Below, one piece after another: positions 1,709 through 55,966 of a DNA stretch of 64,000 nt (within the stretch, counting starts at the first letter, position 1; every line of letters begins with the position of its first letter). The position numbers were made by a program, and so were the translations under genes. The notes beneath the pieces were generated by a model. It had not been told where the DNA came from. It ran no database searches and saw only the letters and a list, made by a program, of their open reading frames with translations. The DNA is taken from assembly GCA_963716925.1 (NCBI GenBank), contig CAVQUX010000015.1, positions 308,104 to 372,103 on the forward strand, read 5' to 3'. Source of the DNA: an uncultured Acidobacteriota bacterium (GTDB lineage Bacteria; Acidobacteriota; Vicinamibacteria; Marinacidobacterales; SMYC01).

Positions 1709-2502
1709 GTACCATGAGCACTGTGCTCTCACGCCGCCCGACCTTTCTCATCGTTCTTACGATTGGTTTTGCGTTGGCGCCGGACCGCCTTGTGCGTGCG
1801 CAGGCGACAGAGACGATCACCATCCGTGGGCAAACGCAATCTCTCCGCCTCTACGGGACGCGCGGCGGTCCTCCGGTGATCGTCTCCAGCGGCGACGGCG
1901 GTTGGATCCACCTCGGACCGCACGTCGCCCAGGCGCTCTCAGCCAAGGGATTCTTCGTGGTGGGCTTCGACGTCAAGGCGTATCTCGAGAGCTTCACCTC
2001 CGGGAAGGTCACTCTGAAGCCCGAAGACGAACCGGGCGACTACAAGGTGCTCGCCGATTTCGCCGCGCGCGGGAGTACGCAGAAGCCGATTCTGATTGGA
2101 GTTTCCGAAGGTGCGGCGCTGTCCGTCCTGGCGGCGACCGATCCCGAAACGAAAGAGTCGATCGCCGGGGTGCTCGGATTGGGTCTTCCCGAGGTGAATG
2201 AGCTGGGCTGGCGGTGGAAGGACTCGTTGATATACGTGACCCACGGCGTGCCGAACGAGCCGACGTTCAGCACCGTCGCGATCGTCGATCGGGTGGCTCC
2301 AACCCCGCTCGCCGCAATCCATTCAACCCAGGACGAGTTCGTTCCGCTGTCGCAGGTGCAAAAGATCCTCGACGCCGCCAAGGAGCCGAAGAAGCTCTGG
2401 ATCGTGAAGGCATCCGATCACCGGTTCAGCGACAACCTGGCGGAGTTCGATCGGCGGCTCCTCGAGGCGATTGCCTGGGTGACCGCGAACGTCGCGCGCT
2501 GA
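1705..2502 (+). CDS. VirJ/AcvB-family alpha/beta hydrolase (single domain), likely aminoacyl-phosphatidylglycerol hydrolase partner of MprF
   Basis: Signal peptide, SGDGGW motif, 265 aa; ATGA start/stop overlap with upstream gene; sits immediately upstream of mprF. Confidence 0.65.
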   Translation: MSTMSTVLSRRPTFLIVLTIGFALAPDRLVRAQATETITIRGQTQSLRLYGTRGGPPVIVSSGDGGWIHLGPHVAQALSAKGFFVVGFDVKAYLESFTSGKVTLKPEDEPGDYKVLADFAARGSTQKPILIGVSEGAALSVLAATDPETKESIAGVLGLGLPEVNELGWRWKDSLIYVTHGVPNEPTFSTVAIVDRVAPTPLAAIHSTQDEFVPLSQVQKILDAAKEPKKLWIVKASDHRFSDNLAEFDRRLLEAIAWVTANVAR

Positions 2503-2510
2503 GGTTCCCG

Positions 2511-5063
2511 ATGTCTGAGCGGCTGCGTCGCGGCGATCCCGGTCGCCGTCGGCCTCGCGCTGTTCCTCGCCGCCCTCGAGGTGCTTCGCGTCGAGCTGCG
2601 GGCGGTCAGTTGGCATGAGCTCACGGCGGACGTGATCCGCACGCCGCCTTCGCAGCTCGTGCTCGCCTTGCTGCTCACGGCCCTCAATTACGCGGCTCTC
2701 ACTGGCTACGACCTGCTGGCGTTCGCCTACATCGGCAAGACGCTTCCGCGCGCGCGTATCGCTCTCGCGTCGTTTCTGGCGTACGCGATTTCCAACAACG
2801 TCGGGTTCGCGATGTTGTCCGGCGCCTCCGTGCGGTATCGCTTCTATACGCGGTGGGGAGTCACGGCCGAGGAGCTCTCGCGGATCGTCTTCTCGTACTC
2901 GGTGACGTTCTGGCTGGGCCTGTTCGGGTTGGGTGGACTGAGCCTCGTCGTCAGTCCCTTGCCGAGCGTGCGCGGTCTGCCCGCGCAGCAGCTCCTGGCG
3001 CCGATCGGTTGGCTGCTCATGCTGGTGCCACCGGCCTATCTGCTGGCAACCGTGGTGCGACGGCGGCCGCTGCGCATCCGGAGCTTCGAGCTGCCGTTGC
3101 CCTCGCCACGGATCGCGGCGGGTCAAGCACTGGTTTCCGCCGTCGACTGGGCCTTGGCGGGGGCCGTGCTCTATGTGTTGTTGCCGCCGAGCGCGCTGTC
3201 CTTTCTGGAGTTCCTCGGCACGTTCCTGGTTGCGATTCTTCTCGGAATGGCCAGTCACGTGCCCGGCGGTATCGGCGTGTTCGAGGGACTGATGGTCCTG
3301 CTCCTCAAGCCGTACCTGACCTCGGGGCAATTACTCCCGGCGCTCGTCGTGTATCGCGCGGTCTACTACCTGCTGCCGCTTACCGTCGCAACCCTCGGCC
3401 TCGTCGCCGACGAAGTGCGGCAGCGCCGCGCCCACGTGGCGCGCATCAGCGCCGTCGTCGGTCAGCTGACGGAGCAGGTCACGCCGCGCGTGCTGGCAGC
3501 CTTCACGTTTCTCGCCGGGCTGGTGTTGCTGTTCTCGGGCGCAACGCCCGCAGCTGCCGGGCGTCTCGAGTCGCTCAATCGGATACTGCCCTCTGGAGTG
3601 ATCGAGGCGTCGCACTTCCTCAGCAGCGTGGCCGGTGCGGCGCTGCTGATTCTGTCGCAAGGGCTGGCGCGGCGCCTCGATGCCGCCTACTACCTCACGG
3701 CAACGACGATCGTCGCCGGGATGGCAGCATCTCTGCTGAAAGGATTCGATTACGAAGAGGCGGTGCTGCTACTGCTGGTCTTCCTGGTGTTGCGGCGGGC
3801 TCGGCCGGCCTTCGATCGCCGCGCGGCCTTTTTCGACACCCGCTTCTCCGCGGCGTGGATCGCGGCACTGGTCGGCGCGCTCGGAGCCTCCGTGTGGCTG
3901 GGCTTGTTCGCGTTCAAGCACGTAGACTACTCGCACGAGCTCTGGTGGCAGTTCGAGGTTCACGGTGAAGCCTCGCGATTTCTCCGAGCCTCGGTCGGTG
4001 CGGTCATCTTCCTGCTGTTGTTTGGATTTGCCCGCTTGATCGGATACGCGCCTCACGAAGCGCCCACCCCGGTCGACGCCGACCTAGAGGACGCCGGAAA
4101 GGCGATCGCCGCACAGACATCGACCTCCCCCTACCTGGTGTATCTCCGGGACAAAGCGCTGCTGTTCAACGACGATCGAACCGCGTTCGTCATGTATGGA
4201 GTCCAGGGTCGCACCTGGGTCGCGCTCGGCGATCCCGTTGGCCCGGACGATCGGCTCAGCGATCTCATTCGCCGCTTCCTCGAACGGTGCGATGATTTTG
4301 GCGGCGTTCCGATCTTTTACGAAGTCGGCAAGACTCACCTGCATCGGTATGCCGACTTCGGCCTGACGTTCGTGAAGCTGGGGGAGGAAGCGAAGGTGGA
4401 CTTGACGACGTTCACAGCTGGAGGGGAGCGAGGCGACCAAATACCGCCAGTCGATTCGTCGGTTGGAGAAAGAAGGGGGCTCCTTTCGCATCGTCGAGCC
4501 CGCTGCCGTTCCAGCGATCATGGACCAGCTCCGCGCGGTGTCCGATGACTGGCTGAGAGCCAAGGCGAGCGCGGAGAAGGGGTTCTCGCTCGGGTTCTTC
4601 GACGAGGCGTACGTCTCCCGGTTCCCCGTCGCCGTCATCGAGCGCGGCGGCCGAATTCAGGCCTTCGCGAACGTCTGGCCCGGGCCAAAGCAGGTGGAGC
4701 TCTCGATCGATCTGATGCGATATCGACCGCGACGCGCCCAAAGGCGTGATGGAGGCTCTTTTCGTCCACTTGATGAAATGGGGCCAGGAGCAGGGGTATC
4801 GCTGGTTCGCGATGGGCATGGCGCCCTTGTCCGGCTTCGAAGACTCGCCCGTAGCCTCGCTCTGGAATCGGCTCGGCGCCTTCCTGTACGAGCACGTCGA
4901 ATCCGTCTACAACTTCCAGGGACTGCGCGCCTACAAGGACAAGTTCAACCCGATCTGGGAGCCGCATTATCTGGCTTATCCGGGTGGCCTTCGCCTGCCG
5001 CGCATCATGGCAGACGTCTCCGCGCTCGTGGCGGGAGGCTATCTGAAGGTCTTTCGAAAGTGA
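2511..5063 (+). CDS. mprF: phosphatidylglycerol lysyltransferase MprF (flippase plus synthase domains), read through about 3 frameshifts
   Basis: MSERLRRG start in one frame, then IPVAVGLALFLAALEVLRVELRAVSWHEL...GGIGVFEG in the next; C-terminal synthase domain split across ORFs 2581-4548, 4463-5134 and 4746-5063 (EKEGGSFRIVEP..., YRWFAMGMAPLSGFE...). Confidence 0.7.
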
Positions 5064-5077
5064 AGTCCGCTTTCGTC

Positions 5078-5506
5078 TCAGACCGTTCTTGGCGGCGGTG
5101 GCATCAACGGACCGCTTCTTGTTCCACAAGGTGATGTGGACAGGAGGCCCTCCCCTTCGCGACGCGCCTTGACGAAGAAGATAGCCGTGGCAACCAGGTT
5201 GTGTCCCTCCGTGCGAAAGCGAACCTGGACCGTGGCACCGACGCCGATCGTGCCCTCGCGCTCCGTGGAACGGCTCAGAACGAACGTCATCTCGCCTGGA
5301 GTCTTGCCGACCCGAGTGATGACGAGCCTGGTCGCATCGACGGACTTCACGACTCCGCTCACCGCGTGGTCGGGCACGGGTTTCTTCGGCGGGGAAGATT
5401 CTGCCGTTGTGTTGGGCGAATCCGCCTGGCCGGCTGCCGCGCCGCCTGCCAGGGGAACCGCCGAAAGTGCCCCGACGAGAAGAGCCGTCGTAATTCCCGT
5501 TACCAT
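5078..5506 (-). CDS. hypothetical secreted protein, single beta-rich repeat related to the 35393/1-276 family
   Basis: MVTGITTALLVGALSAVPLAGGAAAGQA signal peptide, then VSGVVKSVDATRLVITRVGKTPGEMTFVL...GATVQVRF repeat pattern; alternative upstream ATG at 5571. Confidence 0.4.
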   Translation of the reverse strand: MVTGITTALLVGALSAVPLAGGAAAGQADSPNTTAESSPPKKPVPDHAVSGVVKSVDATRLVITRVGKTPGEMTFVLSRSTEREGTIGVGATVQVRFRTEGHNLVATAIFFVKARREGEGLLSTSPCGTRSGPLMPPPPRTV

Positions 5507-5703
5507 CTGAAGCACCCAGCTCTCGGCCTCTTGCCGACTCCGACCAAGTCCCTTTCGCCCCCCGAATGCCATCTCACGAGTCCTGGCGGAAAGGTCTGAT
5601 TGCGGAGGCCTATTCCCCTCATCTACCGCTATTTGACTCGCCCCAGATGAGGGACACCTGATCCTCAGATGAACTCTTGTTAAGGTTCGTGGGCAACCAC
5701 GGC

Positions 5704-7130
5704 CGCGGTAGCCGACAGCCAGCACCCGCCGTCCGTCGGCGCTCAGCTGGTTGCACACCGCGGCGGAGGCTTCCCTCGCGGTCGCATCGAGCGCGGTGAC
5801 CCGTCCGTCGATCTCCTGGGCATCGCAGATCGCGAGCAGGGACTCCGGCGCGCCCTTGGCGATCAGCAGGCGCTGCCGCGGGTCGTCCGGCGTGGACACT
5901 ACCACAGACAAACGGCGACGTTCGAAGTCGAACGGGATTTCGTCTATCTTCGCACAAGCCGAAGCATCGGCCGACGCCGTTTTGAAGAATCGCCGCGTCC
6001 AACGGACTGCGAATGCCCGTCTGAAAACGGCTGTTGAGTGAAGCCAGCGCCAGAGGTCGCGGCGATACCTCACCCGCCGGACCCAGCGAGCGATCGAGGT
6101 GCATCACCCCGGTCGTGAGCGTTCCCGTCTTGTCGGTGCACAGGACGTCGATGCTGCCAAGGTTCTGAATCGCGGGAAGGTGTTTGACGATGACCTTGTC
6201 TCGAGCCATCCGCAGGGCGCCCTGGGTGAGCGTGACCGTTGCGATCATCGGGAGGAACTCCGGTGTCAGCCCGACCCCCAGCGCCACGGCAAAGAGCAGC
6301 GATTCGAGCGCATCGTGCTTGACGACGATGCCCATCAGCAGGATGAAGAGCACCAGCGCGGTGGTCGTTCGCAGAATCAGGAGGCTGAAGCGCCGCAAGC
6401 CGCTTTCGAACTCGGTCTCGGGCACACGGCTGCCCAGTCTCGTGGCGATGTCTCCGAACAGCGTCCTGGGCCCGGTCGCCGTCACGATCGCCGTCGCCGT
6501 TCCGCTGACGACCGACGTACCGAGGAAGACGAGGCCCGGCGCCTCGGGCCCCGTCGTTCGCCGGGTCTCGTCGGCGCTCGCCATCTTGTCCGCCGGCAGC
6601 GATTCGCCCGTCAGCATGGATTGCTGAACCGAGAGATCGCGCGAGTCCAGCAGGCGCGCATCCGCGGGCACGAGATCCCCGGCCGACAGGCGGACTACGT
6701 CTTCAGGGACGAGCTGCCGCAGCGGGACCTCCTGCCAGGTTCCGTCGCGGAGCACGATCGCCGTTGGCGCCACCGTCGCCCGGAGTCGTTCGGCCGCCCG
6801 CTGCGAACGATACGACTGCCAGAAATTGACGCTCACGCTCACCAGGATAATCGTGACGATGATCCCCGCATCGACGTCCTCGCCGAGCCAAGTTGAAACC
6901 GCACTCGCCACGAGCAAGATCAAGACGAGAGGGTTGGCGAACAGGCGACCGATCTCGACCACCGCCGAGAAGCGCCGCGTCGGGGCCGGCTCATTCGGAC
7001 CGTACTCATCGAGGCGGCGTGCGGCCTCGAGGCTCGTCAAGCCGGACGAACGCGGACGCGACTCGGGGTCGCCCGTCCGTTCGCTCAACGGCGCACGTCC
7101 TGGGCGGAGGGCAACTGCGACGCGTCCCAT
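5704..7130 (-). pseudogene. P-type ATPase (MgtA-like) N-terminal two-thirds, frameshifted near 6030 and truncated after the N-domain
   Basis: GLTSLEAARRLDEYGPNEP, TGES, DKTGTLT, then KIDEIPFDFERRRLSVVV...RVLAVGYR in a second frame; no P-domain C-terminus or TM5-10; reading frame runs on into the 5078-5506 ORF. Confidence 0.55.
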
Positions 7131-8536
7131 CCGCCGCCGAGGGCCTGGATCAAGGACACGCTCGCGACCAGGCGTCTGGTGAGGATGTCGACTGCCGCCC
7201 GTTGATTCTGCAGCAAGCTGGTCTGCGAGGTGATGACTTGCAGGTAGTTCGCGAGTCCCCCCGATATTGGATCGTCGAGATGTCAAGCGACTGCTGCGCG
7301 GCTGCGACCGCCCGGTCGACGATCTCTGCCTCGTGGGAGAGGATGCGCAACTCCGCCAGAGCTGTCCTCCACCTGTTGGAATGCCGTCAGTACGGTCTGA
7401 CGGTAATTCGCCACGGTGGCGTCGTAGGCGGCTTCGGTCAGCCTGACTTGAGCGCGGCGCTTGCCCGCGTCGAAGAGCGTCTCGGCCAACTGTACTCCCA
7501 CCGACCAGAGGCGGGTCGGCACCGTGAGCAGGTCGACGATGGCCGCGGCCTGCGAGCCCACGCTGCCGCCGAAGCTCAGGGCGGGGTAGAACGCCGACTT
7601 GGCGACGCCGATCTGTTCGTTCGCTGCCGCGACCTGCCGCTCGGCGGCGGCGACGTCGGGCCGTCGTTCGAGAAGCGTGGAAGGAAGGCCGACGACGACT
7701 GGCGGCGGCGGCGACTGAGTCGGCGCCGCAGGCATCGACAACGCGGACGGTGGCTGTCCGATCAGCACGGCTATGGCGTGCTCGAATTGGGCCCGCGGAA
7801 TGCCCAGGTCGGCCAACTGCGCGCGGGCGGTTTCCAACTGCGTTTGCGCCAGGGCCACGTCGGCCATCGACGCGACACCGCCTTCGTATCGGTCCTTGGT
7901 CAGCTGCACGTACCGTTCGTACGACTGTACGGTGGCCTCGAGCAACCGCCGCTCGGCGTCGAGTCCCTGAATCTGGAAATAGTCGGCGGCGAGTTCCGCC
8001 TGGTACAACAACCGGGCATTCTCCAGGTCCGCGGCGGACGCCTGCGCGACCGCTGAATTTGCCGCGACGCTGCGTCGGATGCTCCCCCAGACGTCCGCTT
8101 GATAGGTCACGTCAATCGGGATGTCGTACAGGCGCACGCCGGACACGGCACCGGTTCCGGAAGCCGTGGCGGACGGGGTCGCGGTCACGGTGGGGAACTG
8201 ACCCGCCCGGGTGACGCGCACGGCCGCCTTGGCCGCGCGGAACTGCGCCTCGGCGGCCAAAACGTTCTGGTTCGAGATGCTCACCTGGTCTTCGAGCGCG
8301 TCGAGCCGCGGGTCGTTGTACGGGCTCCACCACTTGCCGCGGGGTGCGCCGTCGTTGGGCTGCGCTTCCTTCCAGCCGGCGGGCAGCAGCTTCCCCGAAC
8401 GCCGGCGGGGCCGGCACGTCAGGACGCTGGTACTTCGGACCGATCAGCGCAGGCGTTCGAACGAGCAGCACGCCGAGCCGCGCGAAGCGGGGAGCACGGT
8501 CATAGCGATCCGGTCGATCGGACCGCGTTCATTCAT
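7085..8536 (-). CDS. outer-membrane efflux protein (OMF/TolC/NodT family), at least 3 frameshifts
   Basis: [12 protein letters not shown]...[16 protein letters not shown]...[14 protein letters not shown]...LGGGWDASQ assembled from 4 frames; a 6-G run at about 7245 would restore the frame with 7 Gs. Confidence 0.7.
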
Positions 8537-10528: not shown

Positions 10529-11905
10529 TCAGAATCCCGGTCCTCTGCGCCCGCCTGCGGGAGCCGGGACTACCGCCCGACTCGGGGGCTGCCTTCGCCA
10601 GCGCCGCGACGATCACGCGGTCGCCGTCCTTCAGGCCGCCCATCGGTCACCTCCGTGAAGGTGCCGTCGGTCTCGCCGGTACTGACCACGACACGGTGCG
10701 GCCTGTCGTTCACGTCCAGGATCCAGACAGCCTTTTCCGGTGCGGCGCCCTTCTCGACGCTGGCTGCTTCCGTTCGGGGCTCGGGGTGATAACGAAGGGC
10801 GGCGTTGGGGATCTTCAGCACATTCGGCCGCTGATTCACGAGAATCTTCACGTTCGCCGTCATGCCGGGAAACAGCTTCAGCTCCGTATTCGACACGCCA
10901 ATCACGGCGTCGTAGGTGATCACGTTCTGCACGTTGATGGGGGCCTTGCGGATCGGAGGTCACGGTGCCGGTGAAAGTCTGCCCTGGATAGGCATCCACG
11001 GTGAACGTGGCAGACTGGTTCACTCGCACGCGTCCCACGTCCGCTTCCGACACGTTCGTGTCCACCTGCATCTTCGTCAGGTCCTGCGCGATCAAAAACA
11101 ACGTGGGAGCCGCCAGGCTGGCAGCAACCGTCTGCCCGACATCCACGTTCCGTGACACCACGATGCCGTCCACCGGCGCCTTGATGTTCGTGTGATCCAG
11201 GTCGATCTGGGCCGACTGCAATGCCGCGGTGAACTGCTTCACCTGCGCCTGGTTGGAAGTCATCAGCGATTTCGCCACGTTCAATTGAGCCTGCGCCACC
11301 TTCACGCTGTCTTCCATCGCAGTCTGCTGCGCCATGAGGGCGTCGAGATCGGCCACCGCCGACTTGTACGTCGTCTGGGCGGTTTCGAGATCCTCTTTGG
11401 AGTCCGCGTCCTGACTGACCATGATCACGCGCCGATCGACCTTGACCTTGGCGTCCTCGGCGATAGCCTGTGCTTTCACGACATTCGCTTTGGCAGCGGC
11501 GAGCGAAGAGTTGGCGGCCTGAATGCCCGCCAGCGCCTGCTGAACCACGGCCTGGCTGTTGGCGACGGCGGCTCGGGCGGCGGCGACGTTCGCCTGTGCC
11601 TGATTCACCCTCGTCTGGAAGGGGGCCGGATCGATCTGGGCGATCAGCTCTCCCTTGGTTACCTTGGTGTTGAAGTCGGCGAACAACGCCAGAATATTGC
11701 CTGACACCTGCGAGCCCACTTGCACGGTGACGACCGCGTTGGGGTTCCCGGTGGCCGAGATGGTGACGTTGATGTCGCCGTGTTCGATCGTCGCCGTTCG
11801 GTATCGAACGCCGGACCGACTGCCGAGCCAGGCCCACGTCAGCAGCCCGGCAATCGCGCACGTGATGGCGCCAGCCAGGACAACCGTCTTCCTCTGCATA
11901 CTCAT
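10529..11905 (-). CDS. HlyD/MacA-family membrane fusion protein, 2 frameshifts
   Basis: TM anchor, long coiled-coil ([10 protein letters not shown]...), barrel/MP domain continues in ORFs 10570-10932 and 10368-10643 ([10 protein letters not shown]..., LKDGDRVIV). Confidence 0.7.
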
Positions 11906-12075
11906 CGGTTACTCAAGGGATGCCGCCGGGGCACCGCCGCCATGGCCCGTTCGTCGGAATTCATCACGTCGTCAGCTCCATTTGTATTAGACCCGAAGAG
12001 CCTGAGCGGGACATGAGGCGCGAATTAATTCCGTTTAATCCGCCCCCGCGATCGCGCGCCCATGAGTGGACACGC
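11906..12075. repeat. about 170-bp intergenic cassette, copy 1 of 2 (second copy 14326-14520, roughly 85% identical by eye)
   Basis: Shared strings TCGGTTACTCAAGGGATGCCGCC, CCCGTTCGTCGGAAT, TTGTATTAGACCCGAAG, CCTGAGCGGGACATGAGGCGCGAATTAA, TTAATCCGCCCCCGCGATCGC; abuts the start codon of the membrane fusion protein gene. Confidence 0.7.
12024..12040. promoter_or_regulatory. ATTAA-N6-TTAATC dyad motif (site 1 of 7)
   Basis: AT-rich inverted repeat in GC-rich DNA; identical 11-bp half-site spacing at all 7 sites. Confidence 0.45.
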
Positions 12076-12245
12076 GCGCCCCGACGATCCGTGCGCGCTG
12101 TCAACGAAGAAGTCGCGAAGACACCTCTGCTACCGTTTGGCTTCAATTCCGACGGTCTCGAGAGGGGATAACCGTGAGCCTGACCATTTCCTGCCCACAC
12201 TACCGTTGCCGCGCAGGCGCCCCTGACGACTCTCACACAGCTGAT

Positions 12246-13076
12246 TCAGGAGCGGGCCGGCCAAGCATCGTGCCGAACCCGTCCCTTGCCGGCACGCTTC
12301 GCTTCGTACAAGCGGCCGTCGGCTTCACGCAGCGCGTCGTCGAGGTTCGGAGGGGCGCAGTTGAAAGTCACTGCGCCGAGGCTAAGGCCAACCGGCCAGC
12401 CTCGCTCCCGCAGGCTCGGCACTTGCTCGAGCAGATCGCGGAAGACCGCCGCCGCCTCCTCCGCCGCCGTCTCCGGCAGCAGGAGCCCGAACTCGTCACC
12501 GCCCAACCGAGCCACGAGATCCACCCCGCGTAGCCGCCCAAGGAGCAACCCACTGACGGCCACGAGCGCCTTGTCACCCGCCTCATGGCCTAAAGTGTCG
12601 TTCAGGTGCTTGAAGCCGTCGAGATCGATGAGCGCCACGGTGAAGGGACGCCCGTGGCGCCGGGCCCGTTCGATCTCGGCGACCGCCGCCTCCTGGAAGG
12701 CGCGCCGATTCTTGAGGCCTGTCAAGGTGTCCGTGAGCGCCATTTCCGACTCGAAATCCAGCCGACGCTTCAGGCTGGCGATCAGCGCGGCCATAACGGC
12801 GAAAACGGCCAGTTCCGTAGAGAAATTCCAGAACCGCACGGCATCACTCAGCGGCGGGAGGTGGGTTCCATTCGCCACAAAGGAGCTCAGCGCCGCCGCC
12901 GCGGCGAAGAACAGTCCGCTCCCAAGTCCGGCGCTCCAAGTCGCCACTGCCACGGGGCCCAGGTGGATCAGCGTGAAGGCGACATCGTCCCCGCTGACGT
13001 GGTCACCGATCCCCGCGAGCACCACCCCCGCGGTTGCCAAGCCCAGGGCGGTCGTTCGCGAGAGGCGCACCCTCAT
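12246..13076 (-). CDS. membrane-bound GGDEF-domain diguanylate cyclase
   Basis: TM N-terminus; GGDEF signature RLGGDEFGLLL; start taken at MRVRLSRTTALGLA within the longer ORF. Confidence 0.7.
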   Translation of the reverse strand: MRVRLSRTTALGLATAGVVLAGIGDHVSGDDVAFTLIHLGPVAVATWSAGLGSGLFFAAAAALSSFVANGTHLPPLSDAVRFWNFSTELAVFAVMAALIASLKRRLDFESEMALTDTLTGLKNRRAFQEAAVAEIERARRHGRPFTVALIDLDGFKHLNDTLGHEAGDKALVAVSGLLLGRLRGVDLVARLGGDEFGLLLPETAAEEAAAVFRDLLEQVPSLRERGWPVGLSLGAVTFNCAPPNLDDALREADGRLYEAKRAGKGRVRHDAWPARS

Positions 13077-13296
13077 TGTGGCACCGTACCCAGGATCAGC
13101 TCGACCAGCCGCTCGCACTTGCCTCTGAATTGGTGGCCAGGAGCTCCTGCGGCCCGCACTCGTTGGACCTGGATGCGTTCGGTGCCAAGTCGTGTGTTCC
13201 GGACGAAGAGAATGGCGCCCACACCCGGTTCCGGCGTCGCGGACCGCTTCAAGCACGCAGCGCACATGACGGTGGCAGATCCCAGCTCGTTTCGGT

Positions 13297-14325
13297 TCAC
13301 TCGCTGGCCTCGACGGCGAAGACGAAAACCGTGCGGTCGTCACACCAGTTGGGGACTTCCGCAGGGCCGGGGGCCGCAGCCGCGACCCGGAGCAGTTCGT
13401 CGCAGATCTGGGCTGGCGAACTTCCCGCGGTCAAACGCTCCAGCGACGCTCCCAGGGTCTGGCTCAGAGTCGTCGGCCCGGTTCCGAGCGCTTCGGTAAT
13501 GCCGTCCGTGACCAGTACGCCGATGTCGTTCGGGCTCAGGGCGAGGTCGGCGACCGAATACGTCGCCCCCGGAAGCAGCCCCAGGGGTGGCCCGCCGGAC
13601 TCGATCGCAGCGGTGAGCGATCCGTTCCGCACCAAGTAGCCCGCGGGATGGCCGGCGTTGACGTAGACGAGCCGCGCGGGCTCCGTCTCGAAGCGCGCCA
13701 CGATGGCTGTCGCGTACGGTAGCCCCGCGTACTCTTCGTAGAGCGCCGCGGAGATCCGCTCCGCGATGATCGCTGGGGCGCCGGTCTCGCGAGCGAAGGC
13801 TCGAAACAGAGTCTTGAGCGACGACAGGATGAGCGCCGCCGGGATGCCCTTGCCCGAGACGTCGCCCAGGATCGCGAGCACCGTGTCCGAGGTGGGCTGG
13901 AAGAAGTCGTAGAAGTCGCCCCCGATGTGGCTCGCAGGGATCATGCGCGCCGCCCAGCGGAAGCTCTGGGTGGTCTGCGGGACGTCGGGCAGCAGGCCCC
14001 GCTGGATCTGCAGCTGCGAGGCGCAGTTGCTCGTTGACGGCAATCTGCTCCTGCTGCAGCTTGAGTACGTGAGTTCGAGAAGCCTTCAGATGAAGCCAGA
14101 GGTAGGTGAGCCCGGCCACACCGATCGAAATCACGGCGTCGCTCAGCCACTCCAACTCGCCACGGTTGCCGTGAACCGCACGGATGATCATCGACTCTGC
14201 CGCCGTGCCGACGGCGAAGACGGCGATTCCCGCCGCCGTAGCGAGAACCGAAGGTATCCACACGGCCGGACCGACCCCGGCGGGCACCCTGCGAGTCGGG
14301 CTCAGCGCCTCTGAGCCTTCATCCA
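13297..14325 (-). CDS. PP2C/SpoIIE-family serine phosphatase with N-terminal TM segments, 1 frameshift near 14000
   Basis: IGGDFYDF...LGDVSGKGIPAA...VNAGHP...TDGITE motifs; N-terminal membrane part MDEGSEALSP... lies in a different frame. Confidence 0.7.
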
Positions 14326-14520
14326 TGCGTCGGTTACTCAAGGGATGCCGCCCGGCGCACCGCCGCCATAGCCCGTTCGTCGGAATCCATCAAGTCGTCG
14401 CCTCAGGTTGTATTAGACCCGAAGGGCCTGAGCGGGACATGAGGCGCGAATTAAATCCACTTAATCCGCCCCCGCGATCGCACGCCCGTGAGAGGACAGA
14501 GCCGCCCCGGTGATCGACGA
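14326..14520. repeat. about 170-bp intergenic cassette, copy 2 of 2 (see 11906-12075)
   Basis: Same sequence blocks as copy 1; lies between the divergent PP2C gene (minus) and the response regulator gene (plus). Confidence 0.7.
14450..14466. promoter_or_regulatory. ATTAA-N6-TTAATC dyad motif (site 2 of 7)
   Basis: ATTAAATCCACTTAATC. Confidence 0.45.
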
Positions 14521-14594
14521 TGAATTACTATGGACCCGGCCGCGCGGCGCGTGCGAACGCCTCAGCGAAGGCACCGGACAGACAGGGGGTGGGT

Positions 14595-15270
14595 ATGCGC
14601 GTCCTCGTGATTGAGGACGACCGGAAGGTCGCGAGTTTCATCCAGACCGGCCTCGAGCAGGAAGGCTACGCCGTGGACCTCCTCAACGACGGCGCGGAGG
14701 CGGGCGATCAGGCGCTCGCCATCGATTACGACGCCGTCGTGCTCGATTTGATGCTGCCAGGCCGGTCCGGGTTCCAGGTTCTGCGGGACATCCGGGCGAG
14801 AAAGGCGTCGCTGCCGGTGCTCATTCTCACGGCCAAGAGACTCGCTCGAGGAGCGCGTCGCCGGGCTCGATGCCGGTGCGGATGACTACATGACCAAGCC
14901 GTTCGCGCTCGCGGAGCTCTCGGCACGGCTCCGCGCCTTGCTCAGGCGCGGCGCGCCTCGCGAGAGCGTTCTGCGCGTGGCGGACCTCGAGATGGACACC
15001 GTGCGGCGCAAGGTGCGACGCGCGGGAAGAGCGATCGACCTGAAGCCCAAGGAGTACGCGCTGCTCGAGATTCTGATGCGGAACGTCGATCGTCCGTTGA
15101 CCAAGGCGCTGATCATCGAGCACGTCTGGGACATCCATTTCGACAGCATCAGCAACGTCGTCGAGGTCCACATCAACTCGCTGCGAAACAAGATCGACAA
15201 GGGATTCGACATCCCCCTCATTCACACCATCCGGGGAGTCGGGTACGTCCTCACGGAGGCTCCGTCGTGA
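14595..15270 (+). CDS. OmpR/PhoB-family response regulator, 1 frameshift near 14835
   Basis: MRVLVIEDD...DLMLPGRSGFQVL receiver, then winged-helix LKPKEYALLEILMRN...TIRGVGYVL in a second ORF. Confidence 0.8.
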
Positions 15271-16670
15271 CCCTGACTCTGCGCGCCCGGTTGGCCACGA
15301 TCTCCACGATCGTGTTTGGCCTGCTCCTCGCGGCGCTCAGTTTTGTTTCGTACGAAGTACTCTCCCGGCAGCTCGATGCTGACGTCACGGAGCGCCTCAC
15401 GCAACTCACCGATGGTCTCCATGGGTACTTGCATTTCGACGGCGACACGGCGTCGGTCGTGTTCGACGCAAGAGACAACGATCAGGCGGTGTTCGTCAAC
15501 GAGGCGACGAGATACTACCAGGTATACGACGCAGAAACCGGCCGCCTCCTTGCCGAGTCGAGTGCGTTGACACCTCTCGCACTGCACTTGACCCCGGGTG
15601 AGGTCCGGGGGTTTCGCGCGGAGCCGACGCCCTTCGACATCGAGACCGAGTATGGCCGACTGCGCATCTCCAACAGCTTGGGGACGGAGGCAAACGGCCG
15701 CGCGTACCTCCTGCAGTTGGGGGTGTCGCTCGTGCCGATGGATACGGCGCTCGCGCGTTATCGCGACCACCTGTTGTGGCGTGTGCCGGTGGCGCTTCTG
15801 GTCGCCATCGCTGCCTCGTGGTGGCTGTCGGCGCTCGCCTTGCTCCCGCTTTCTCGGGTGGCGGTGGCGGCGAGCGAGATCAACGTGCAGACGCTCGAAC
15901 GGCGGCTGCCGAGTCGCGGCGTGGACGATGAACTCGAGCAGTTGGTCGACGCCTTCAACGACACGCTCGGGCGCCTCGAACATGCGGTCGGGGAGATGCG
16001 CCAGTTCAGTGCTGCCCTGGCGCACGAGCTGCGTACGCCGCTGGCCGCGCTTCGAGGCGAGATCGAGCTGGCCATGCGGGCGCCTGGAGCGAACCCGGCA
16101 CAGCGAGACCGGTGTGCCAGCCAGGTGGAGGAGATTGACAGGCTGACGCGGCTCATTGACCACATCCTGACCTTGGCCCGGGCCGAGTCCGGCCAGATTC
16201 GGCTTACCCGTGCGCCAGTCAATCTCGCCGATCTCGCCGCCTCTCTCGTCGAGCAGCTCGAGCCCCTCGCGGCGGCGAGGTCGATCGAGCTGCGCTCGGA
16301 GCCGTCCGATGCGGTGTTTGTCGATGGCGACGCCGGCTGGCTCCAACGACTGTTGCTGAACCTGGTGGACAACGCCATCAAGTTCACGAAGGAGAACGGC
16401 CGGATCGTGGTGCGGGTCACCCGCGAGGGCGACGACGCGCGGGTCGATGTGCAAGATACGGGAGTTGGCCTGTCGCCCGCCGATGCGCGGCAGGCGTTCG
16501 AACGATTTTTCCGAGCCGAGCCCGCTCGTTCCTCCTCGACCGAAGGCGCGGGGCTCGGCCTGAGCCTGGTCCGGTGGATCGCGGCGCAACATCGCGGAAC
16601 GGTAACCGTTCAGAGTCGTCTGGGCGAGGGCTCGACGTTCACCGTCACCCTGCCCCTCAGTCGAGGCTGA
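15267..16670 (+). CDS. sensor histidine kinase (two TM, HAMP, HisKA, HATPase_c)
   Basis: GTGA overlap with regulator stop; H-box LAHELRTPL; DTGVGL and GLGLSLV G-boxes; intact 467 aa ORF. Confidence 0.85.
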   Translation: MTLTLRARLATISTIVFGLLLAALSFVSYEVLSRQLDADVTERLTQLTDGLHGYLHFDGDTASVVFDARDNDQAVFVNEATRYYQVYDAETGRLLAESSALTPLALHLTPGEVRGFRAEPTPFDIETEYGRLRISNSLGTEANGRAYLLQLGVSLVPMDTALARYRDHLLWRVPVALLVAIAASWWLSALALLPLSRVAVAASEINVQTLERRLPSRGVDDELEQLVDAFNDTLGRLEHAVGEMRQFSAALAHELRTPLAALRGEIELAMRAPGANPAQRDRCASQVEEIDRLTRLIDHILTLARAESGQIRLTRAPVNLADLAASLVEQLEPLAAARSIELRSEPSDAVFVDGDAGWLQRLLLNLVDNAIKFTKENGRIVVRVTREGDDARVDVQDTGVGLSPADARQAFERFFRAEPARSSSTEGAGLGLSLVRWIAAQHRGTVTVQSRLGEGSTFTVTLPLSRG

Positions 16671-22169: not shown

Positions 22170-22357
22170 AGGCGGCGCTCGGTTGACGCCCGCCCGGGGG
22201 AAAACGGGTTCGCTCCTCTGCACCCTTGCGACGAAGTGGACCTCCCCGGGCGGGCGCTCGCGAGTCTCTCGTATCGAGCGCGTCTGGGACATGTATTTCG
22301 ATGTCCAGCCGGACTCCACGTTCACGATACGGGACACGATGGGCACCCCCCCGGCAC

Positions 22358-22374
22358 ATTAACGGAAGTTAATC
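22358..22374. promoter_or_regulatory. ATTAA-N6-TTAATC dyad motif (site 3 of 7), perfect palindrome ATTAAC-N4-GTTAAT
   Basis: cATTAACGGAAGTTAATCtgcgcCTCACG, about 100 bp upstream of the STAS gene. Confidence 0.5.
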
Positions 22375-22470
22375 TGCGCCTCACGATCCGCTGAACCGTG
22401 TCTCGTAGTATTTGCTTCATGATCACGAGATCGACTGCCGCATCAACCAAAAGGGGTTAGTCACACGTTG

Positions 22471-26166: not shown

Positions 26167-26223
26167 GTCTGTTCCTCCACCGTGGATTTGACGCGAAAAG
26201 ACTGATGCGAACGTGAAGCCGCG

Positions 26224-26240
26224 ATTAATTCGGATTAATC
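26224..26240. promoter_or_regulatory. ATTAA-N6-TTAATC dyad motif (site 4 of 7)
   Basis: gcgATTAATTCGGATTAATCC, same flank as sites 1 and 2. Confidence 0.45.
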
Positions 26241-26267
26241 CCCGTCGTCCGTTGGTGGTCGCCGGTC

Positions 26268-26284
26268 ATTAAAAGGAGTTAATC
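26268..26284. promoter_or_regulatory. ATTAA-N6-TTAATC dyad motif (site 5 of 7)
   Basis: gtcATTAAAAGGAGTTAATCgg...tCACG, same flank as sites 3, 6 and 7; tandem with site 4, about 75 bp upstream of the PAP2 gene. Confidence 0.45.
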
Positions 26285-26358
26285 GGGGTTTCACGTCGCG
26301 CTCACGCGGGTTGCTGCGTAATACACGGAGACACACGAGCGTGTCGAGGAGAAGCGAC

Positions 26359-27297
26359 ATGACGTCATCTGGAATGATCCTGGTTCTTGCTGCGGCGCTG
26401 GGCGTGCCCGCCACGGGGCGAGCGTCGTCGAGGGACGACGGGAGCGTCGCAGAAACGGACCGCACGCGGCAAGCGGAGCCGGCCCAGCCCCCAGTGGAGG
26501 ACGGTGCTGTGTTGCCGAAGGAGCAGTCGCCGGCGATCGACCCATCGCAGACCAGAGCGGCCGAGGAGGACGTGCCGCAGGACGGGAAAACCGGATTACG
26601 CACGCTTTTCCGTGATCTTGGCAGCGACTTCGCGCACCTGCCGTCTCGCGATTCGCTCTTCGTCGCCAGCATAGGGGGTACCGCCGCTCTCGCCCTGCAC
26701 CCGTTCGACGCGACGTTCAACGAGCACCTCCAAGACTCATCGTTCTTCAGCGCTGGCGATCGGCTCGGAAACACGTTCACGCTCATGGGCGCGACGTTCG
26801 CCGTGTACGGCGTCGGGCTCGCGACCGGCCATCATCGCGTCACCCACGTGGCGATGGACGTGGTGCGAGCGCAGCTCGTGAGCGAAGCCCTGGTGCAGTC
26901 GTTGAAGGTGGCGGTGCGCCGGGAGCGGCCGGACGGCAGCAGCGGCTATTCGTTTCCGTCCGGCCATGCGGCGGTGACGTTCGCCACCGCCACCGTGCTC
27001 CAGCGGCATCATGGCCTCAAGTGGGCCCTGCCGGCCTACGGGCTGGCGACGTATGTGGCCATGTCGCGGCTTCACGACAACGTGCACTACCTGAGCGACG
27101 TCGTCTTCGGGGCGACCATCGGTACGCTGGTCGGGCGGACCGTGACTCGACACGGCCCCCAGAACTTCGCCTTCATGCCGATGGCGGTACCTGGCGGCGC
27201 GGCGTTTGTCGTCCTGTACTCACCCAGAGGCTCAATAGAGTGCGGCTTCAACGGACCTCGCCGAGTACCGCTGCGGTTCGCCCAGTCCAGTCATTAA
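26359..27297 (+). CDS. PAP2-family (acid) phosphatase
   Basis: KVAVRRERP, FPSGHAA and SRLHDNVHYLSDV motifs (KxxxxxxRP / PSGH / SRxxxxxHxxxD). Confidence 0.75.
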   Translation: MTSSGMILVLAAALGVPATGRASSRDDGSVAETDRTRQAEPAQPPVEDGAVLPKEQSPAIDPSQTRAAEEDVPQDGKTGLRTLFRDLGSDFAHLPSRDSLFVASIGGTAALALHPFDATFNEHLQDSSFFSAGDRLGNTFTLMGATFAVYGVGLATGHHRVTHVAMDVVRAQLVSEALVQSLKVAVRRERPDGSSGYSFPSGHAAVTFATATVLQRHHGLKWALPAYGLATYVAMSRLHDNVHYLSDVVFGATIGTLVGRTVTRHGPQNFAFMPMAVPGGAAFVVLYSPRGSIECGFNGPRRVPLRFAQSSH

Positions 27298-27441
27298 GGG
27301 AAGTTAAGCGGTCGCTCACGCTCCGATCATCGGCGAGAGGTCAAATGGAGTTGAGAGCATCCAGCGGTGCAGCGCCGGTGGCTCGGTGAGCCTCGGGCGG
27401 TGCCGCGAAAAAAGAGGAGAGACGTCATGAGACTTCGCCGT
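27288..27441 (+). repeat. about 155-bp upstream cassette (promoter, 5'UTR, RBS and first 5 codons MRLR), copy 1 of 2
   Basis: GTCATTAAGGGAAGTTAAGCGGTCGCTCACGCTCCGATCATCGGCGAGAGGTCAAATGGA...GCGGTGCCGCGAAAAAAGAGGAGAGACGTCATGAGACTTCGCC is near-identical to 34458-34610. Confidence 0.7.
27293..27309. promoter_or_regulatory. ATTAA-N6-TTAAGC dyad motif (site 6 of 7)
   Basis: tcATTAAGGGAAGTTAAGCggtcgCTCACG. Confidence 0.45.
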
Positions 27442-34457: not shown

Positions 34458-34610
34458 GGGGTCATTAAGCGGAGTTAATCGGTCACTCACGCTCCGATCA
34501 TCGGCGAGAGGTCAAATAGAACTGGGAAAACGGTTCGGCGTTGCGAGTGGCTCGGCGTTCAGCGCGGTGCCGCAAAAAAGAGAAGGAGAGACGTCATGAG
34601 ACTTCGCAAG
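34458..34610 (+). repeat. about 155-bp upstream cassette, copy 2 of 2 (see 27288-27441)
   Basis: GTCATTAAGCGGAGTTAATCGGTCACTCACGCTCCGATCATCGGCGAGAGGTCAAATAGA...GCGGTGCCGCAAAAAAGAGAAGGAGAGACGTCATGAGACTTCGCAAG. Confidence 0.7.
34464..34480. promoter_or_regulatory. ATTAA-N6-TTAATC dyad motif (site 7 of 7)
   Basis: gtcATTAAGCGGAGTTAATCggtcaCTCACG. Confidence 0.45.
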
Positions 34611-37520: not shown

Positions 37521-37609
37521 TGCTGCGAGCGTCGAGATGGCGGAAGTCTCGAAAGAGCGGCGGAGGATTCCGCCGCCCGCGCCCGTGGCCTCGCCCGCTG
37601 TGCCTTGGC

Positions 37610-37798
37610 TCATAACGTCGAGGTGTTTGAAGGGAGGGCGAGAAGCTGCTCCAGCCTAGTCAGGCGCTCGCTCTGGGCGGTGACGAGCTCGGCGAGAGCC
37701 GCCCACTGATGCTCGCGCGCGGCGTCCAGCTTCTCGTGCAGCCTCATGGTCTCCATCTCGGCACGCCGGTTCACTTCGTAGTCGGTCTTCTCGTCCAA
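37610..37798 (-). CDS. small hypothetical protein (62 aa, helical)
   Basis: ORF only; start not resolved against the downstream AcvB ORF; no recognisable motif. Confidence 0.25.
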   Translation of the reverse strand: MDEKTDYEVNRRAEMETMRLHEKLDAAREHQWAALAELVTAQSERLTRLEQLLALPSNTSTL

Positions 37799-55819: not shown

Positions 55820-55929
55820 GGCGCTCGCCTTACATAAAAGATGAGTTCAGAAGAGAGCCGTACTAGATCCGTGGGGTGGGGCATTCTACACCAAAAGGCA
55901 CTTCCAAGTGAAACGCTCCTTCGTCAGGG

Positions 55930-55954
55930 GGAACTTTCGCGGGGTTCCCGCGTT
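55930..55954 (+). promoter_or_regulatory. candidate ECF-sigma-type promoter GGAAC-N16-CGTT (autoregulatory)
   Basis: GGAACTTTCGCGGGGTTCCCGCGTT ending 13 bp before the ECF sigma ATG. Confidence 0.35.
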
Positions 55955-55966
55955 GAACCCATTGAA

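What the first reader, a model, noticed from the sequence alone, without database searches (positions are those of the whole stretch)
11906..14520. Duplicated 170-bp promoter and leader cassette driving two different minus-strand operons
11906-12075 and 14326-14520 share long identical blocks, roughly 85% by eye, from the start codon context (CCCTTGAGTAACCGAYG) outward through the dyad motif. Copy 1 precedes the membrane fusion protein gene of the ATPase/permease/outer-membrane-factor efflux operon. Copy 2 precedes the PP2C-GGDEF operon and also faces the divergent response regulator and kinase pair.

Only two copies were seen, and there are no terminal inverted repeats, so this is not an obvious MITE. 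More likely a regulatory module has been copied between operons.
Basis: seen in the sequence. Interest (0 to 1): 0.6.

Follow-up and report, generated by a model that had tools for sequence, protein, structure and literature searches.

The report
Duplicated efflux promoter captures signalling operon
In an uncultured soil Acidobacteriota genome, the ~186-bp promoter and leader of an efflux-pump operon has been copied in front of unrelated signalling genes; this is a real, well-resolved, but ordinary case of bacterial promoter reuse inside a local stress regulon.

Summary
The repeat is real. Window 11905-12089 and 14330-14515 align over 186 columns at 87.6% identity (E 4e-64), and the window holds only these two copies. 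Copy 1 is the native upstream region of macA-macB-OMF: five related Acidobacteriota loci carry one orthologous copy at that position. Copy 2 is specific to this lineage. [quoted passage not shown] That gene, a virJ2 remnant and a GGDEF gene have replaced the ancestral PP2C.

The conserved core is a promoter, not an RNA or a MITE. Its pattern is TTAA-N6-TTAA-N7-yTCA-N7-yTCA-N10/11-GTCWAAT. This architecture occurs at seven promoters in the window (0.01 TTAA-N6-TTAA sites expected). In related macA loci it is present when the CopR/PmrA-like response regulator and kinase pair is adjacent (6/6) and absent otherwise (0/2). The 5' leader is poorly conserved, has no consensus structure, no Rfam match and no conserved small ORF.

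The case meets the published definition of a "putative mobile promoter". The binding factor, the transcription start and copy number outside the window remain untested.

The parts
11905..12089 (-). Copy 1: native promoter and 5' leader of the macA-macB-OMF operon (parent locus)
   Evidence: Aligns to copy 2 at 87.6% over 186 columns. Orthologous to the single macA-upstream region of L001, L006, L007, L011 and L012.
14330..14515 (-). Copy 2: lineage-specific duplicate fused to the PP2C_new start codon
   Evidence: The junction lies 3 nt upstream of the ATG that is the native start in L010. No relative has a copy here.
12020..12043 (-). Upstream operator of copy 1: GCGGATTAA-N6-TTAATTCGC (TTAA-N6-TTAA). 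It reads equally as a dyad or as a direct repeat with a 10-bp period.
   Evidence: The arms are invariant in 14 aligned promoters while the spacer varies.
14446..14469 (-). Upstream operator of copy 2. The arms are identical to copy 1; the spacer differs at 3 of 6 positions.
12003..12017 (-). Two phased CTCA repeats of copy 1 (CTCATGTCCCGCTCA, 11-bp period), lying where a -35 element would be
   Evidence: TCA...T(C/G)A is invariant in alignment A6.
14429..14443 (-). The same phased CTCA repeats in copy 2, identical sequence
11986..11992 (-). -10-like element GTCTAAT of copy 1 (class consensus GTCWAAT). The transcription start is inferred to lie a few nt downstream.
   Evidence: It sits at a fixed distance from the repeats in 13 of 14 promoters. 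No canonical sigma-70 promoter was found by the consensus scan.
14412..14418 (-). -10-like element GTCTAAT of copy 2
11906..11985 (-). 5' leader of macA (about 80 nt), copied along with the promoter. Not a conserved RNA element.
   Evidence: L006 and L011 lack 44 nt of it. RNAalifold predicts 0 pairs on 7 leaders. MFE z-scores are -0.63 and +0.29. No Rfam hit.
14329..14411 (-). Copied leader in front of PP2C_new
10631..11905 (-). macA (HlyD-family adaptor), first gene of the macA / ABC ATPase / MacB permease / OMF operon
   Evidence: Pfam hits. 78-86% amino-acid identity to P0002-P0006.
13300..14326 (-). PP2C_new (SpoIIE/RsbU-like phosphatase with a membrane N-terminus). The reading frame breaks near 14012-14085.
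   Evidence: Pfam SpoIIE. 82-87% nucleotide identity to L009 and L010. Only 39% amino-acid identity to the ancestral PP2C of L001 and L007.
13085..13139 (-). Remnant of the 3' end of a virJ2-like gene. Its stop codon overlaps the GGDEF start (ATGA).
   Evidence: 84-85% identity to the 3' ends of virJ2 in L009 and L010.
12246..13076 (-). GGDEF diguanylate cyclase gene with a membrane N-terminus
   Evidence: Pfam GGDEF. Start codon.
14526..14594 (.). Retained ancestral intergenic region between the response regulator gene and the (now lost) ancestral PP2C
   Evidence: 77-80% identity to the RR-PP2C intergenic regions of L006 and L011; a 35-39-nt stretch next to the RR start is also 85-86% identical in L007 and L012.
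14595..15270 (+). OmpR-family response regulator, the candidate factor for the promoter class. There is an apparent +1 frameshift near 14836-14840.
   Evidence: Pfam Response_reg and Trans_reg_C in two frames. Intact orthologue in L007: best NCBIfam hit is cztR_silR_copR at 252.6 bits, below the 279.2 cut-off. Frameshift seen.
15267..16670 (+). HAMP-HisKA-HATPase sensor kinase, partner of the response regulator
22354..22418 (+). Promoter of the same class (site C), upstream of a STAS gene (ATG 22471)
   Evidence: Model R1 score 44.8 bits.
26175..26243 (-). Promoter of the same class (site D-), upstream of a secreted 387-aa protein of unknown family (ATG 26166)
   Evidence: 49.9 bits.
26265..26333 (+). 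Promoter of the same class (site D+), upstream of a PAP2 phosphatase gene (ATG 26359)
   Evidence: 46.2 bits.
27291..27358 (+). Promoter of the same class (site E), upstream of a DUF4398 lipoprotein gene (ATG 27427)
   Evidence: 46.1 bits.
34461..34528 (+). Promoter of the same class (site F), upstream of a BON-domain gene (ATG 34596)
   Evidence: 50.2 bits.

Best explanation
Shown: copy 1 is the native upstream region of the macA-macB-OMF efflux operon. It consists of about 50 nt of distal sequence, a TTAA-N6-TTAA operator, two phased yTCA repeats in the -35 zone, a GTCWAAT -10-like element, and a leader of about 80 nt that is poorly conserved. Inferred: the core is an activator-dependent promoter. 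It is one of at least seven promoters of one class in this window, which together look like a local envelope/stress regulon. The most likely factor is the adjacent CopR/PmrA-like OmpR-family response regulator with its kinase, bound as tandem dimers to the phased repeats. Shown: in this lineage only, a 2.24-kb segment replaced the ancestral PP2C gene. The segment carries PP2C_new, which was torn out of a virJ-PP2C-mprF-virJ2 operon, plus a virJ2 remnant and a GGDEF gene. The 186-bp macA upstream region now flanks this segment as a direct repeat. Copy 2 is joined 3 nt before the PP2C_new start codon. Inferred consequence: the phosphatase and diguanylate cyclase genes are now transcribed from a copy of the regulon promoter, using the macA leader and ribosome-binding context. 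They are therefore co-induced with the efflux pump. Copy 2 also brings the operator to within about 125 nt of the response regulator gene.
For: Repeat: 87.6% identity over 186 columns, E 4e-64.
Orthology of copy 1: L001, L006, L007, L011 and L012 each have one copy, upstream of macA, in the conserved order HK-RR / PP2C_anc / macAB-OMF.
Copy 2 is derived. It is closer to copy 1 than to any orthologue. PP2C_new is 82-87% identical at nucleotide level to genes in L009 and L010, which lie inside virJ-PP2C-mprF-virJ2 and have no promoter of this class within 17 kb. The junction is exact. A virJ2 remnant is present. No PP2C_anc orthologue exists elsewhere in the window.
Promoter class: there are exactly 7 TTAA-N6-TTAA sites against 0.01 expected, and none at any other spacing from 0 to 15. 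They account for 14 of the 17 TTAA tetramers in the window. All seven are intergenic and point at a start codon 50-135 nt downstream. In the 14-sequence alignment the invariant columns are ATTAA, TTAA, TCA, T.A and the final T of the -10-like element. The sequence model scores these sites at 39-65 bits and finds new ones in relatives.
Link to the two-component system: macA loci with the RR-HK neighbour carry the class 6/6; those without it (L008, L013) carry it 0/2. L002 and L005, whose RR-HK is 66% identical, have the class in front of a different operon.
Both copies carry a similar number of derived substitutions, 9 and 10. Copy 2 keeps every invariant position of the class.
Against: No transcription start or binding data exist. 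The -10 and -35 assignment and the identity of the factor are inference. No canonical sigma-70 promoter was detected. The response regulator scores below the cut-off of every named NCBIfam family, and no known operator of those families was shown to match. The response regulator and PP2C_new both carry frameshifts in this assembly. If these are real, the module may be decaying rather than rewired. The co-occurrence test rests on only 8 loci. The duplication could be a neutral structural by-product of the insertion, since the copies are direct repeats flanking the insert. The GGDEF gene is about 220 nt downstream of the PP2C stop, so co-transcription is assumed and not shown. Copy number elsewhere in the genome is unknown.
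Confidence: 0.7

Rival explanations
1. The duplication is only a structural scar. A 2.24-kb segment entered at the macA upstream region by single-crossover (Campbell-type) or duplicative insertion, leaving the target as 186-bp direct repeats. Copy 2 was not selected for regulation, and recombination between the copies could excise the insert again.
For: Each copy keeps one ancestral flank. Copy 1 keeps the macA side. Copy 2 keeps roughly 25 nt more of the ancestral distal intergenic sequence and abuts the ancestral RR intergenic region. The insert (12090-14329) is a rearranged operon fragment with a gene remnant. A second pair of direct-repeat promoter and leader copies flanks a 7.2-kb segment.
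Against: The junction lies exactly 3 nt before the native ATG of PP2C_new, which is what expression would require. Copy 2 retains all invariant promoter positions after about 12% divergence, and the core is 95% identical against 80% for the distal part. This rival concerns how the copy arose and does not exclude its regulatory effect.
Confidence: 0.35
2. The shared architecture is the promoter of an alternative sigma factor, for example one controlled by the local PP2C/STAS partner-switching proteins, and not the operator of the neighbouring response regulator.
For: No canonical -35/-10 pair was found. The regulon includes RsbU-like PP2C and RsbV-like STAS genes, and the STAS operon carries the motif in the window and in L006, L007, L011 and L012, which is reminiscent of sigma-B autoregulation. 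The -10-like GTCWAAT resembles ECF-type -10 elements (from memory, not tested).
Against: No sigma or anti-sigma kinase gene lies next to these promoters. The only sigma gene seen (55838-56548, ECF type) is more than 20 kb from the nearest site. Four elements phased at 10-11 bp and spanning about 36 bp upstream of the -10 fit tandem response-regulator binding better than a single -35 element. The class tracks the RR-HK neighbourhood (6/6 against 0/2).
Confidence: 0.2
3. The repeat is a cis-regulatory RNA (riboswitch, attenuator or leader peptide) shared by two operons.
For: Similarity runs through about 80 nt of 5' leader up to the start codons. In copy 1 a 20-codon small ORF ends in an ATGA overlap with macA (read). 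A GGDEF gene is nearby.
Against: There is no Rfam match at gathering score or at E<=5 within either copy. MFE z-scores are -0.63 and +0.29. RNAalifold predicts 0 pairs on 7 orthologous leaders, and L006 and L011 lack 44 nt. The small ORF is frame-shifted in copy 2 and absent in L006. The most conserved part lies upstream of the -10-like element. In other members of the class its distance to the start codon varies from about 25 to 135 nt.
Confidence: 0.04
4. The repeat is a MITE or other non-autonomous mobile element.
For: It is a short non-coding repeat in intergenic DNA. Its copy number elsewhere in the genome is unknown.
Against: There are no terminal inverted repeats or target-site duplications. 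The window holds only two copies. Copy 1 is a stable orthologous single-copy region in five relatives. Exact-word scans of species-representative genomes and JGI metagenomes found the core only at syntenic or regulon promoters.
Confidence: 0.03
5. The second copy is an assembly artefact of a long-read metagenome bin.
For: The window and related ENA contigs are full of split genes typical of indel errors.
Against: The copies differ at 23 of 186 columns and have four different unique flanks. Artefactual duplication would give near-identical copies. The inserted genes are coherent and 82-87% identical to real genes elsewhere.
Confidence: 0.05

Closest known systems
Putative mobile promoters / promoter propagation (Matus-Garcia, Nijveen & van Passel 2012, PMC3488235)
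   Same: Highly similar upstream regions (>50 nt, >=80% identity) in front of non-homologous genes within one genome. Most published families are pairs (68%) with a mean identity of 92%. In the Treponema example described in the paper, conservation starts about 5 nt from the start codon, as it does here.
   Different: Here the parent copy, the donor context of the captured gene and both junctions can be reconstructed from relatives. The promoter also belongs to a defined regulon class with a candidate regulator next door.
Activator-dependent promoters of OmpR/PhoB-family response regulators (pho box; PmrA/BasR YTTAAK-N5-YTTAAK; ArcA GTTAATTAAATGTTA). The motifs are recalled from memory.
   Same: AT-rich short repeats phased at 10-11 bp. 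The repeats occupy or replace the -35 region about 10 nt upstream of a -10 element. A response regulator and kinase pair is encoded beside the target operons. The targets (MacAB, PAP2, and MprF/VirJ in L002) resemble PhoP/PmrA-type envelope-remodelling regulons.
   Different: TTAA start-to-start spacing is 10 nt, not 11. There are four phased elements of two kinds (TTAA x2, yTCA x2). The response regulator is nearest the CopR/CusR family but scores below its cut-off. Binding is untested.
Sigma-B-type partner-switching regulons (RsbU PP2C, RsbV STAS)
   Same: PP2C and STAS genes are members of the co-regulated set.
   Different: No RsbW-like kinase or sigma gene was found at these loci. The promoter does not match GTTTAA-N12-15-GGGTAT (from memory).

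Membership tests
Putative mobile promoter (PMP; PMC3488235) | Upstream regions align over >50 nt at >=80% identity | tested here: met
   186 columns at 87.6% identity, ending 0-3 nt from the start codons (definition).
Putative mobile promoter (PMP; PMC3488235) | Downstream coding sequences are not homologous | tested here: met
   HlyD/MacA adaptor against SpoIIE/PP2C phosphatase. Similarity stops at the start codons.
Putative mobile promoter (PMP; PMC3488235) | Upstream neighbours are not homologous, and the repeat is not an IS end | tested here: met
   The upstream neighbours are a GGDEF gene and a divergent response regulator gene. No terminal inverted repeats. No transposase was seen in the region.
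MITE | Terminal inverted repeats and target-site duplication | tested here: not met
   No inverted repeats at the ends of either copy. The flanks carry no matching direct repeats.
MITE | Many dispersed copies in the genome | not testable with these tools
   The window holds two copies. The rest of the source genome (a 533-kb contig) could not be retrieved.
Known cis-regulatory RNA (Rfam 15) | Match to a covariance model, or a conserved structure with covariation | tested here: not met
   No hit at gathering score. No hit at E<=5 inside either copy. RNAalifold gives 0 pairs on 7 leaders.
Operator/promoter of an OmpR-family response regulator | Short repeats phased at about one helical turn, placed at a fixed distance from a -10 element | tested here: met
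   TTAA-N6-TTAA-N7-yTCA-N7-yTCA-N10/11-GTCWAAT in 13 of 14 aligned promoters.
Operator/promoter of an OmpR-family response regulator | Co-occurrence of the motif with the regulator gene | tested here: met
   6/6 macA loci with the RR-HK neighbour carry it, against 0/2 without. L002 and L005 also carry it. The sample is small.
Operator/promoter of an OmpR-family response regulator | Direct binding and activation by the phosphorylated regulator | not testable with these tools
   Needs EMSA, DAP-seq or genetics.
CopR/CusR/CzcR heavy-metal response regulators (TIGR01387) | Score at or above the curated family cut-off | tested here: not met
   252.6 bits against a cut-off of 279.2. The kinase scores 283-284 against 292.55. 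These are the nearest family, but membership is not demonstrated.

The most novel reading that the evidence does not exclude
The four-element promoter (TTAA-N6-TTAA + yTCA-N7-yTCA + GTCWAAT) may define a previously undescribed envelope/stress regulon of soil Acidobacteriota, run by a CopR/PmrA-like two-component system. This regulon may grow by repeatedly copying whole promoter-plus-leader cassettes onto new genes. The 64-kb window holds two independent pairs: macA/PP2C, and DUF4398/BON. In each pair the copies are joined at or just after the start codon and lie as direct repeats around an inserted block. That pattern hints at a recurrent recombination route for recruiting genes into the regulon.
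Probability: 0.35. Interest if true: 0.5.

Novelty: new member of a known kind. Interest (0 to 1): 0.35.

Why it matters
This is a clean natural example of transcriptional rewiring by promoter duplication. The parent promoter, the donor operon of the captured gene, the replaced gene and both junctions can all be read from comparative data, which is rarely possible for putative mobile promoters. It also yields a sharply defined promoter/operator motif and a candidate regulator for an uncultured Acidobacteriota lineage, a group with almost no experimentally characterised regulation. Seven ready-made target promoters are available for DAP-seq or reporter tests. It does not reveal a new kind of element or mechanism.

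Tried and rejected
Rfam search of the whole window at gathering score and of 11850-14650 at E<=5: nothing in the copies.

Single-sequence RNA folding of both copies: z-scores not significant.

RNAalifold on seven orthologous leaders: no pairs.

Leader-peptide idea: the small ORF is frame-shifted in copy 2 and deleted in L006 and L011.

Sigma-70 and intrinsic-terminator scan of 11800-14700: no promoter, and one terminator-like site no better than chance.

MITE idea: no terminal inverted repeats.

Retrieving the source contig by exact protein look-up failed three times. The cluster look-up gave no name or accession, so genome-wide copy number could not be counted.

The genome-contig scan with a 20-mer from the core found only the relative L001. 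The metagenome scan with the dyad found L002 and L005 plus two hits with no similarity to the window or the promoter class, L003 and L004.

Gene conversion between two pre-existing regulon promoters was rejected. The native context of PP2C_new in L009 and L010 has no such promoter, and the similarity extends through the non-promoter leader and distal flank.

A literature search for an Acidobacteria motif or regulator returned nothing relevant.

The weak model hit at window 5625-5683 (13.8 bits) lies inside a P-type ATPase gene and was not pursued.
Full report
OBSERVATION. BLASTN aligns window 11905-12089 with 14330-14515 over 186 columns: 163 identical (87.6%), 22 mismatches, one 1-nt gap, E = 3.9e-64. 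MAFFT and the repeat finder (family D1) agree. Two long identical blocks, searched with up to three mismatches, occur only at these two places in the 64-kb window. Identity is uneven. It is 95% in the 39 nt between the dyad and the -10-like element, 89% in the leader and 80% in the distal 46 nt. In the dyad, all three differences fall in the 6-nt spacer and both arms are identical.

CONTEXT IN THE WINDOW. All the genes concerned are on the minus strand.
- Copy 1 ends at the ATG (11905) of a HlyD/MacA adaptor gene. An ABC ATPase, a MacB-type permease and an outer-membrane factor follow.
- Copy 2 ends 3 nt before the ATG (14326) of a SpoIIE/PP2C phosphatase gene whose reading frame breaks once. 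A GGDEF gene lies downstream (12246-13076).
- An OmpR-family response regulator (ATG 14595, frameshifted near 14838) and a HAMP-HisKA kinase are encoded divergently from copy 2.
- The window is 65% G+C.

WHAT RELATIVES SHOW. An exact-word scan of species-representative genomes found one relative, L001, an uncultured Acidobacteriota MAG that is about 84% identical across the efflux operon and the two-component genes. Homologues of MacA led to further loci.

Five relatives (L001, L006, L007, L011, L012) share the order HK <- RR <- | -> PP2C_anc -> [element] -> macA-ATPase-permease-OMF. Each has exactly one copy of the element, between PP2C_anc and macA. Copy 1 is therefore the orthologous, ancestral copy.

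Copy 2 is closer to copy 1 than to any orthologue. The duplication therefore happened in the window's own lineage. Using the relatives as outgroups, derived substitutions are split evenly, 9 in copy 1 and 10 in copy 2.

THE CAPTURED GENES.
- The PP2C behind copy 2 is not the ancestral one. It is only about 39% identical in protein to PP2C_anc, whereas the PP2C_anc orthologues are 72-80% identical to each other.
- Its true orthologues (up to 83% amino-acid identity; 82-87% nucleotide identity) lie in L009 and L010, inside a virJ-PP2C-mprF-virJ2 operon. No promoter of the class described below occurs within 17 kb in those loci.
- Homology to L010 begins at "CGCATGGAT", where the ATG is the annotated start in L010. 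Homology to copy 1 ends at "GAGTAACCGA" immediately before it. The fusion is thus exact, 3 nt upstream of the native start codon.
- Between the PP2C stop and the GGDEF start lies a 55-nt remnant of the virJ2 3' end (13085-13139, 84-85% identical to L009 and L010). Its stop codon overlaps the GGDEF ATG. mprF and most of virJ2 have therefore been deleted from a once longer operon.
- On the other side, window 14526-14594 is the ancestral RR-PP2C_anc intergenic region.
- No PP2C_anc orthologue remains anywhere in the window.

In sum, a 2.24-kb block (12090-14329) replaced PP2C_anc, and the macA upstream region now flanks that block as a 186-bp direct repeat. Copy 1 keeps the ancestral macA flank. 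Copy 2 keeps about 25 nt more of the ancestral distal flank, although that similarity is weak. This geometry is what a single-crossover or duplicative insertion would leave. It means the duplication may be a by-product of the insertion rather than a separate event.

WHAT THE CONSERVED CORE IS. Among the six macA-type sequences, the strongly conserved part runs from the dyad to a -10-like element. The leader is not conserved: L006 and L011 lack 44 nt of it.

The same architecture appears at other promoters. TTAA-N6-TTAA occurs exactly seven times in the window. It occurs zero times at every other spacing from 0 to 15. A first-order Markov simulation expects 0.01. These seven sites contain 14 of the window's 17 TTAA tetramers.

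All seven sites are intergenic, and each is followed at fixed distances by yTCA-N7-yTCA and, in 6 of 7, by GTCWAAT 10-11 nt further on. Each points at a start codon 50-135 nt downstream. The genes are macA, PP2C_new, a STAS gene (22471), a secreted protein of unknown family (26166), a PAP2 phosphatase (26359), a DUF4398 lipoprotein (27427) and a BON-domain protein (34596).

A sequence-only model built from 14 such sites scores them at 39-65 bits. It also finds further sites in relatives, for example in front of the conserved 121-aa + STAS operon next to the kinase gene.

The variable distance to the start codon (about 25 nt in L002) and the position upstream of the -10-like element argue for a promoter with operator rather than an RNA element. 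If GTCWAAT is the -10, the two yTCA repeats fall at about -37 and -26, and the two TTAA elements at about -58 and -48. That gives four elements phased at 10-11 bp. No canonical sigma-70 -35/-10 pair is present. This layout is typical of activator-dependent promoters of OmpR/PhoB-family regulators (general knowledge; specific motifs recalled from memory).

WHICH FACTOR. This is inference only.
- The class tracks the neighbouring two-component system. Six of six macA loci with the RR-HK neighbour carry the class upstream of macA. Neither of the two macA loci without that neighbour (L008, L013) carries it.
- A more distant locus (L002/L005, RR-HK 66% identical) has the same promoter in front of a lipoprotein-virJ-mprF operon, plus a divergent one.
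- The response regulator is nearest the CopR/CusR/CzcR family but scores below its curated cut-off (252.6 against 279.2). PmrA, QseB and RppA come next. The closest solved structures include PhoP, PrrA and BasR/PmrA.
- A rival is an alternative sigma factor, possibly linked to the PP2C/STAS proteins. No sigma or anti-sigma kinase gene is nearby: the only sigma gene seen is an ECF type at 55.8 kb.

WHAT IT IS NOT.
- No Rfam family matches.
- Folding energies are unremarkable.
- Seven orthologous leaders give no consensus structure.
- The small ORF that overlaps the macA ATG in copy 1 is frame-shifted in copy 2 and missing in L006.
- There are no terminal inverted repeats or target duplications.

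COMPARISON WITH WHAT IS KNOWN. The case fulfils the published operational definition of a putative mobile promoter: more than 50 nt at 80% identity or better, upstream of non-homologous genes, with non-homologous upstream neighbours. More than 4000 such families were reported in 1043 genomes, and 68% of them are pairs (PMC3488235). It is therefore a new member of a known kind. What is added here is the reconstruction of the event and the regulon context.

CAVEATS. The window and the related ENA contigs contain many split genes, most likely long-read indel errors. This affects the reading of the response regulator and PP2C_new frameshifts, and possibly the single indel between the copies. The source genome outside the window could not be searched. 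All functional statements (transcription start, factor, co-induction, co-transcription of the GGDEF gene) are inferred.

VERDICT. This is an ordinary phenomenon that is unusually well resolved, and it comes with a newly defined promoter class for an uncultured Acidobacteriota lineage. Interest 0.35.

Noticed in passing
window 27290-27440 and 34461-34610: A second promoter-plus-leader pair. The two regions share the TTAA-class promoter, both ends of the leader, the Shine-Dalgarno region and the first four codons (ATGAGACTTCGC, MRLR). The coding sequences are then unrelated (DUF4398 lipoprotein against BON-domain protein). The copies are direct repeats 7.2 kb apart.
   Followed up: partly
window 12020-34530 (seven sites): Only 17 TTAA tetramers occur in the 64 kb, and 14 of them sit in seven TTAA-N6-TTAA promoter sites. 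This defines a tight local regulon: MacAB-OMF, PP2C/GGDEF, STAS, PAP2, DUF4398, BON and a secreted protein of unknown family.
   Followed up: yes
window 26223-26284: Two TTAA-N6-TTAA sites 44 nt apart drive divergent genes: a 387-aa secreted protein on the minus strand and PAP2 on the plus strand. L002 5087-5212 shows a similar back-to-back arrangement.
   Followed up: partly
window 14836-14840; about 14012-14085; 4548-4716; 5078-7286: Apparent frameshifts split the response regulator, PP2C_new, mprF and a P-type ATPase. Related ENA contigs (L006, L008, L009, L011) are fragmented in the same way, which suggests long-read indel errors rather than pseudogenes. If the response-regulator frameshift is real, the regulon's presumed regulator is inactive.
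   Followed up: partly
window 13085-13139: A 55-nt remnant of a virJ2-like gene 3' end lies between the PP2C and GGDEF genes, with an ATGA stop/start overlap onto GGDEF. It is evidence that mprF-virJ2 was deleted from a former virJ-PP2C-mprF-virJ2-GGDEF operon.
   Followed up: yes
L006 3888-3945, L007 3418-3487 and 2105-2153, L011 2782-2839, L012 4465-4527: In relatives, a conserved operon encoding a 121-aa protein with no Pfam match plus a STAS protein lies directly downstream of the kinase gene. It carries the same promoter class. In the window the STAS gene with its promoter has moved to 22.4 kb.
   Followed up: no
window 1585-5063 and 36123-37655; L002, L007, L012: virJ-mprF genes (lysyl-phosphatidylglycerol synthesis and hydrolysis) recur near this cluster in several genomes. 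In L002 they are driven by the TTAA-class promoter. In the window, no TTAA-class site precedes the virJ-mprF copy.
   Followed up: no
window 11952-11961 and 12145-12154: A perfect 10-nt inverted repeat (CGTCGGAATT / AATTCCGACG) links the copy 1 leader to the unique spacer upstream of copy 1. It is probably chance.
   Followed up: no
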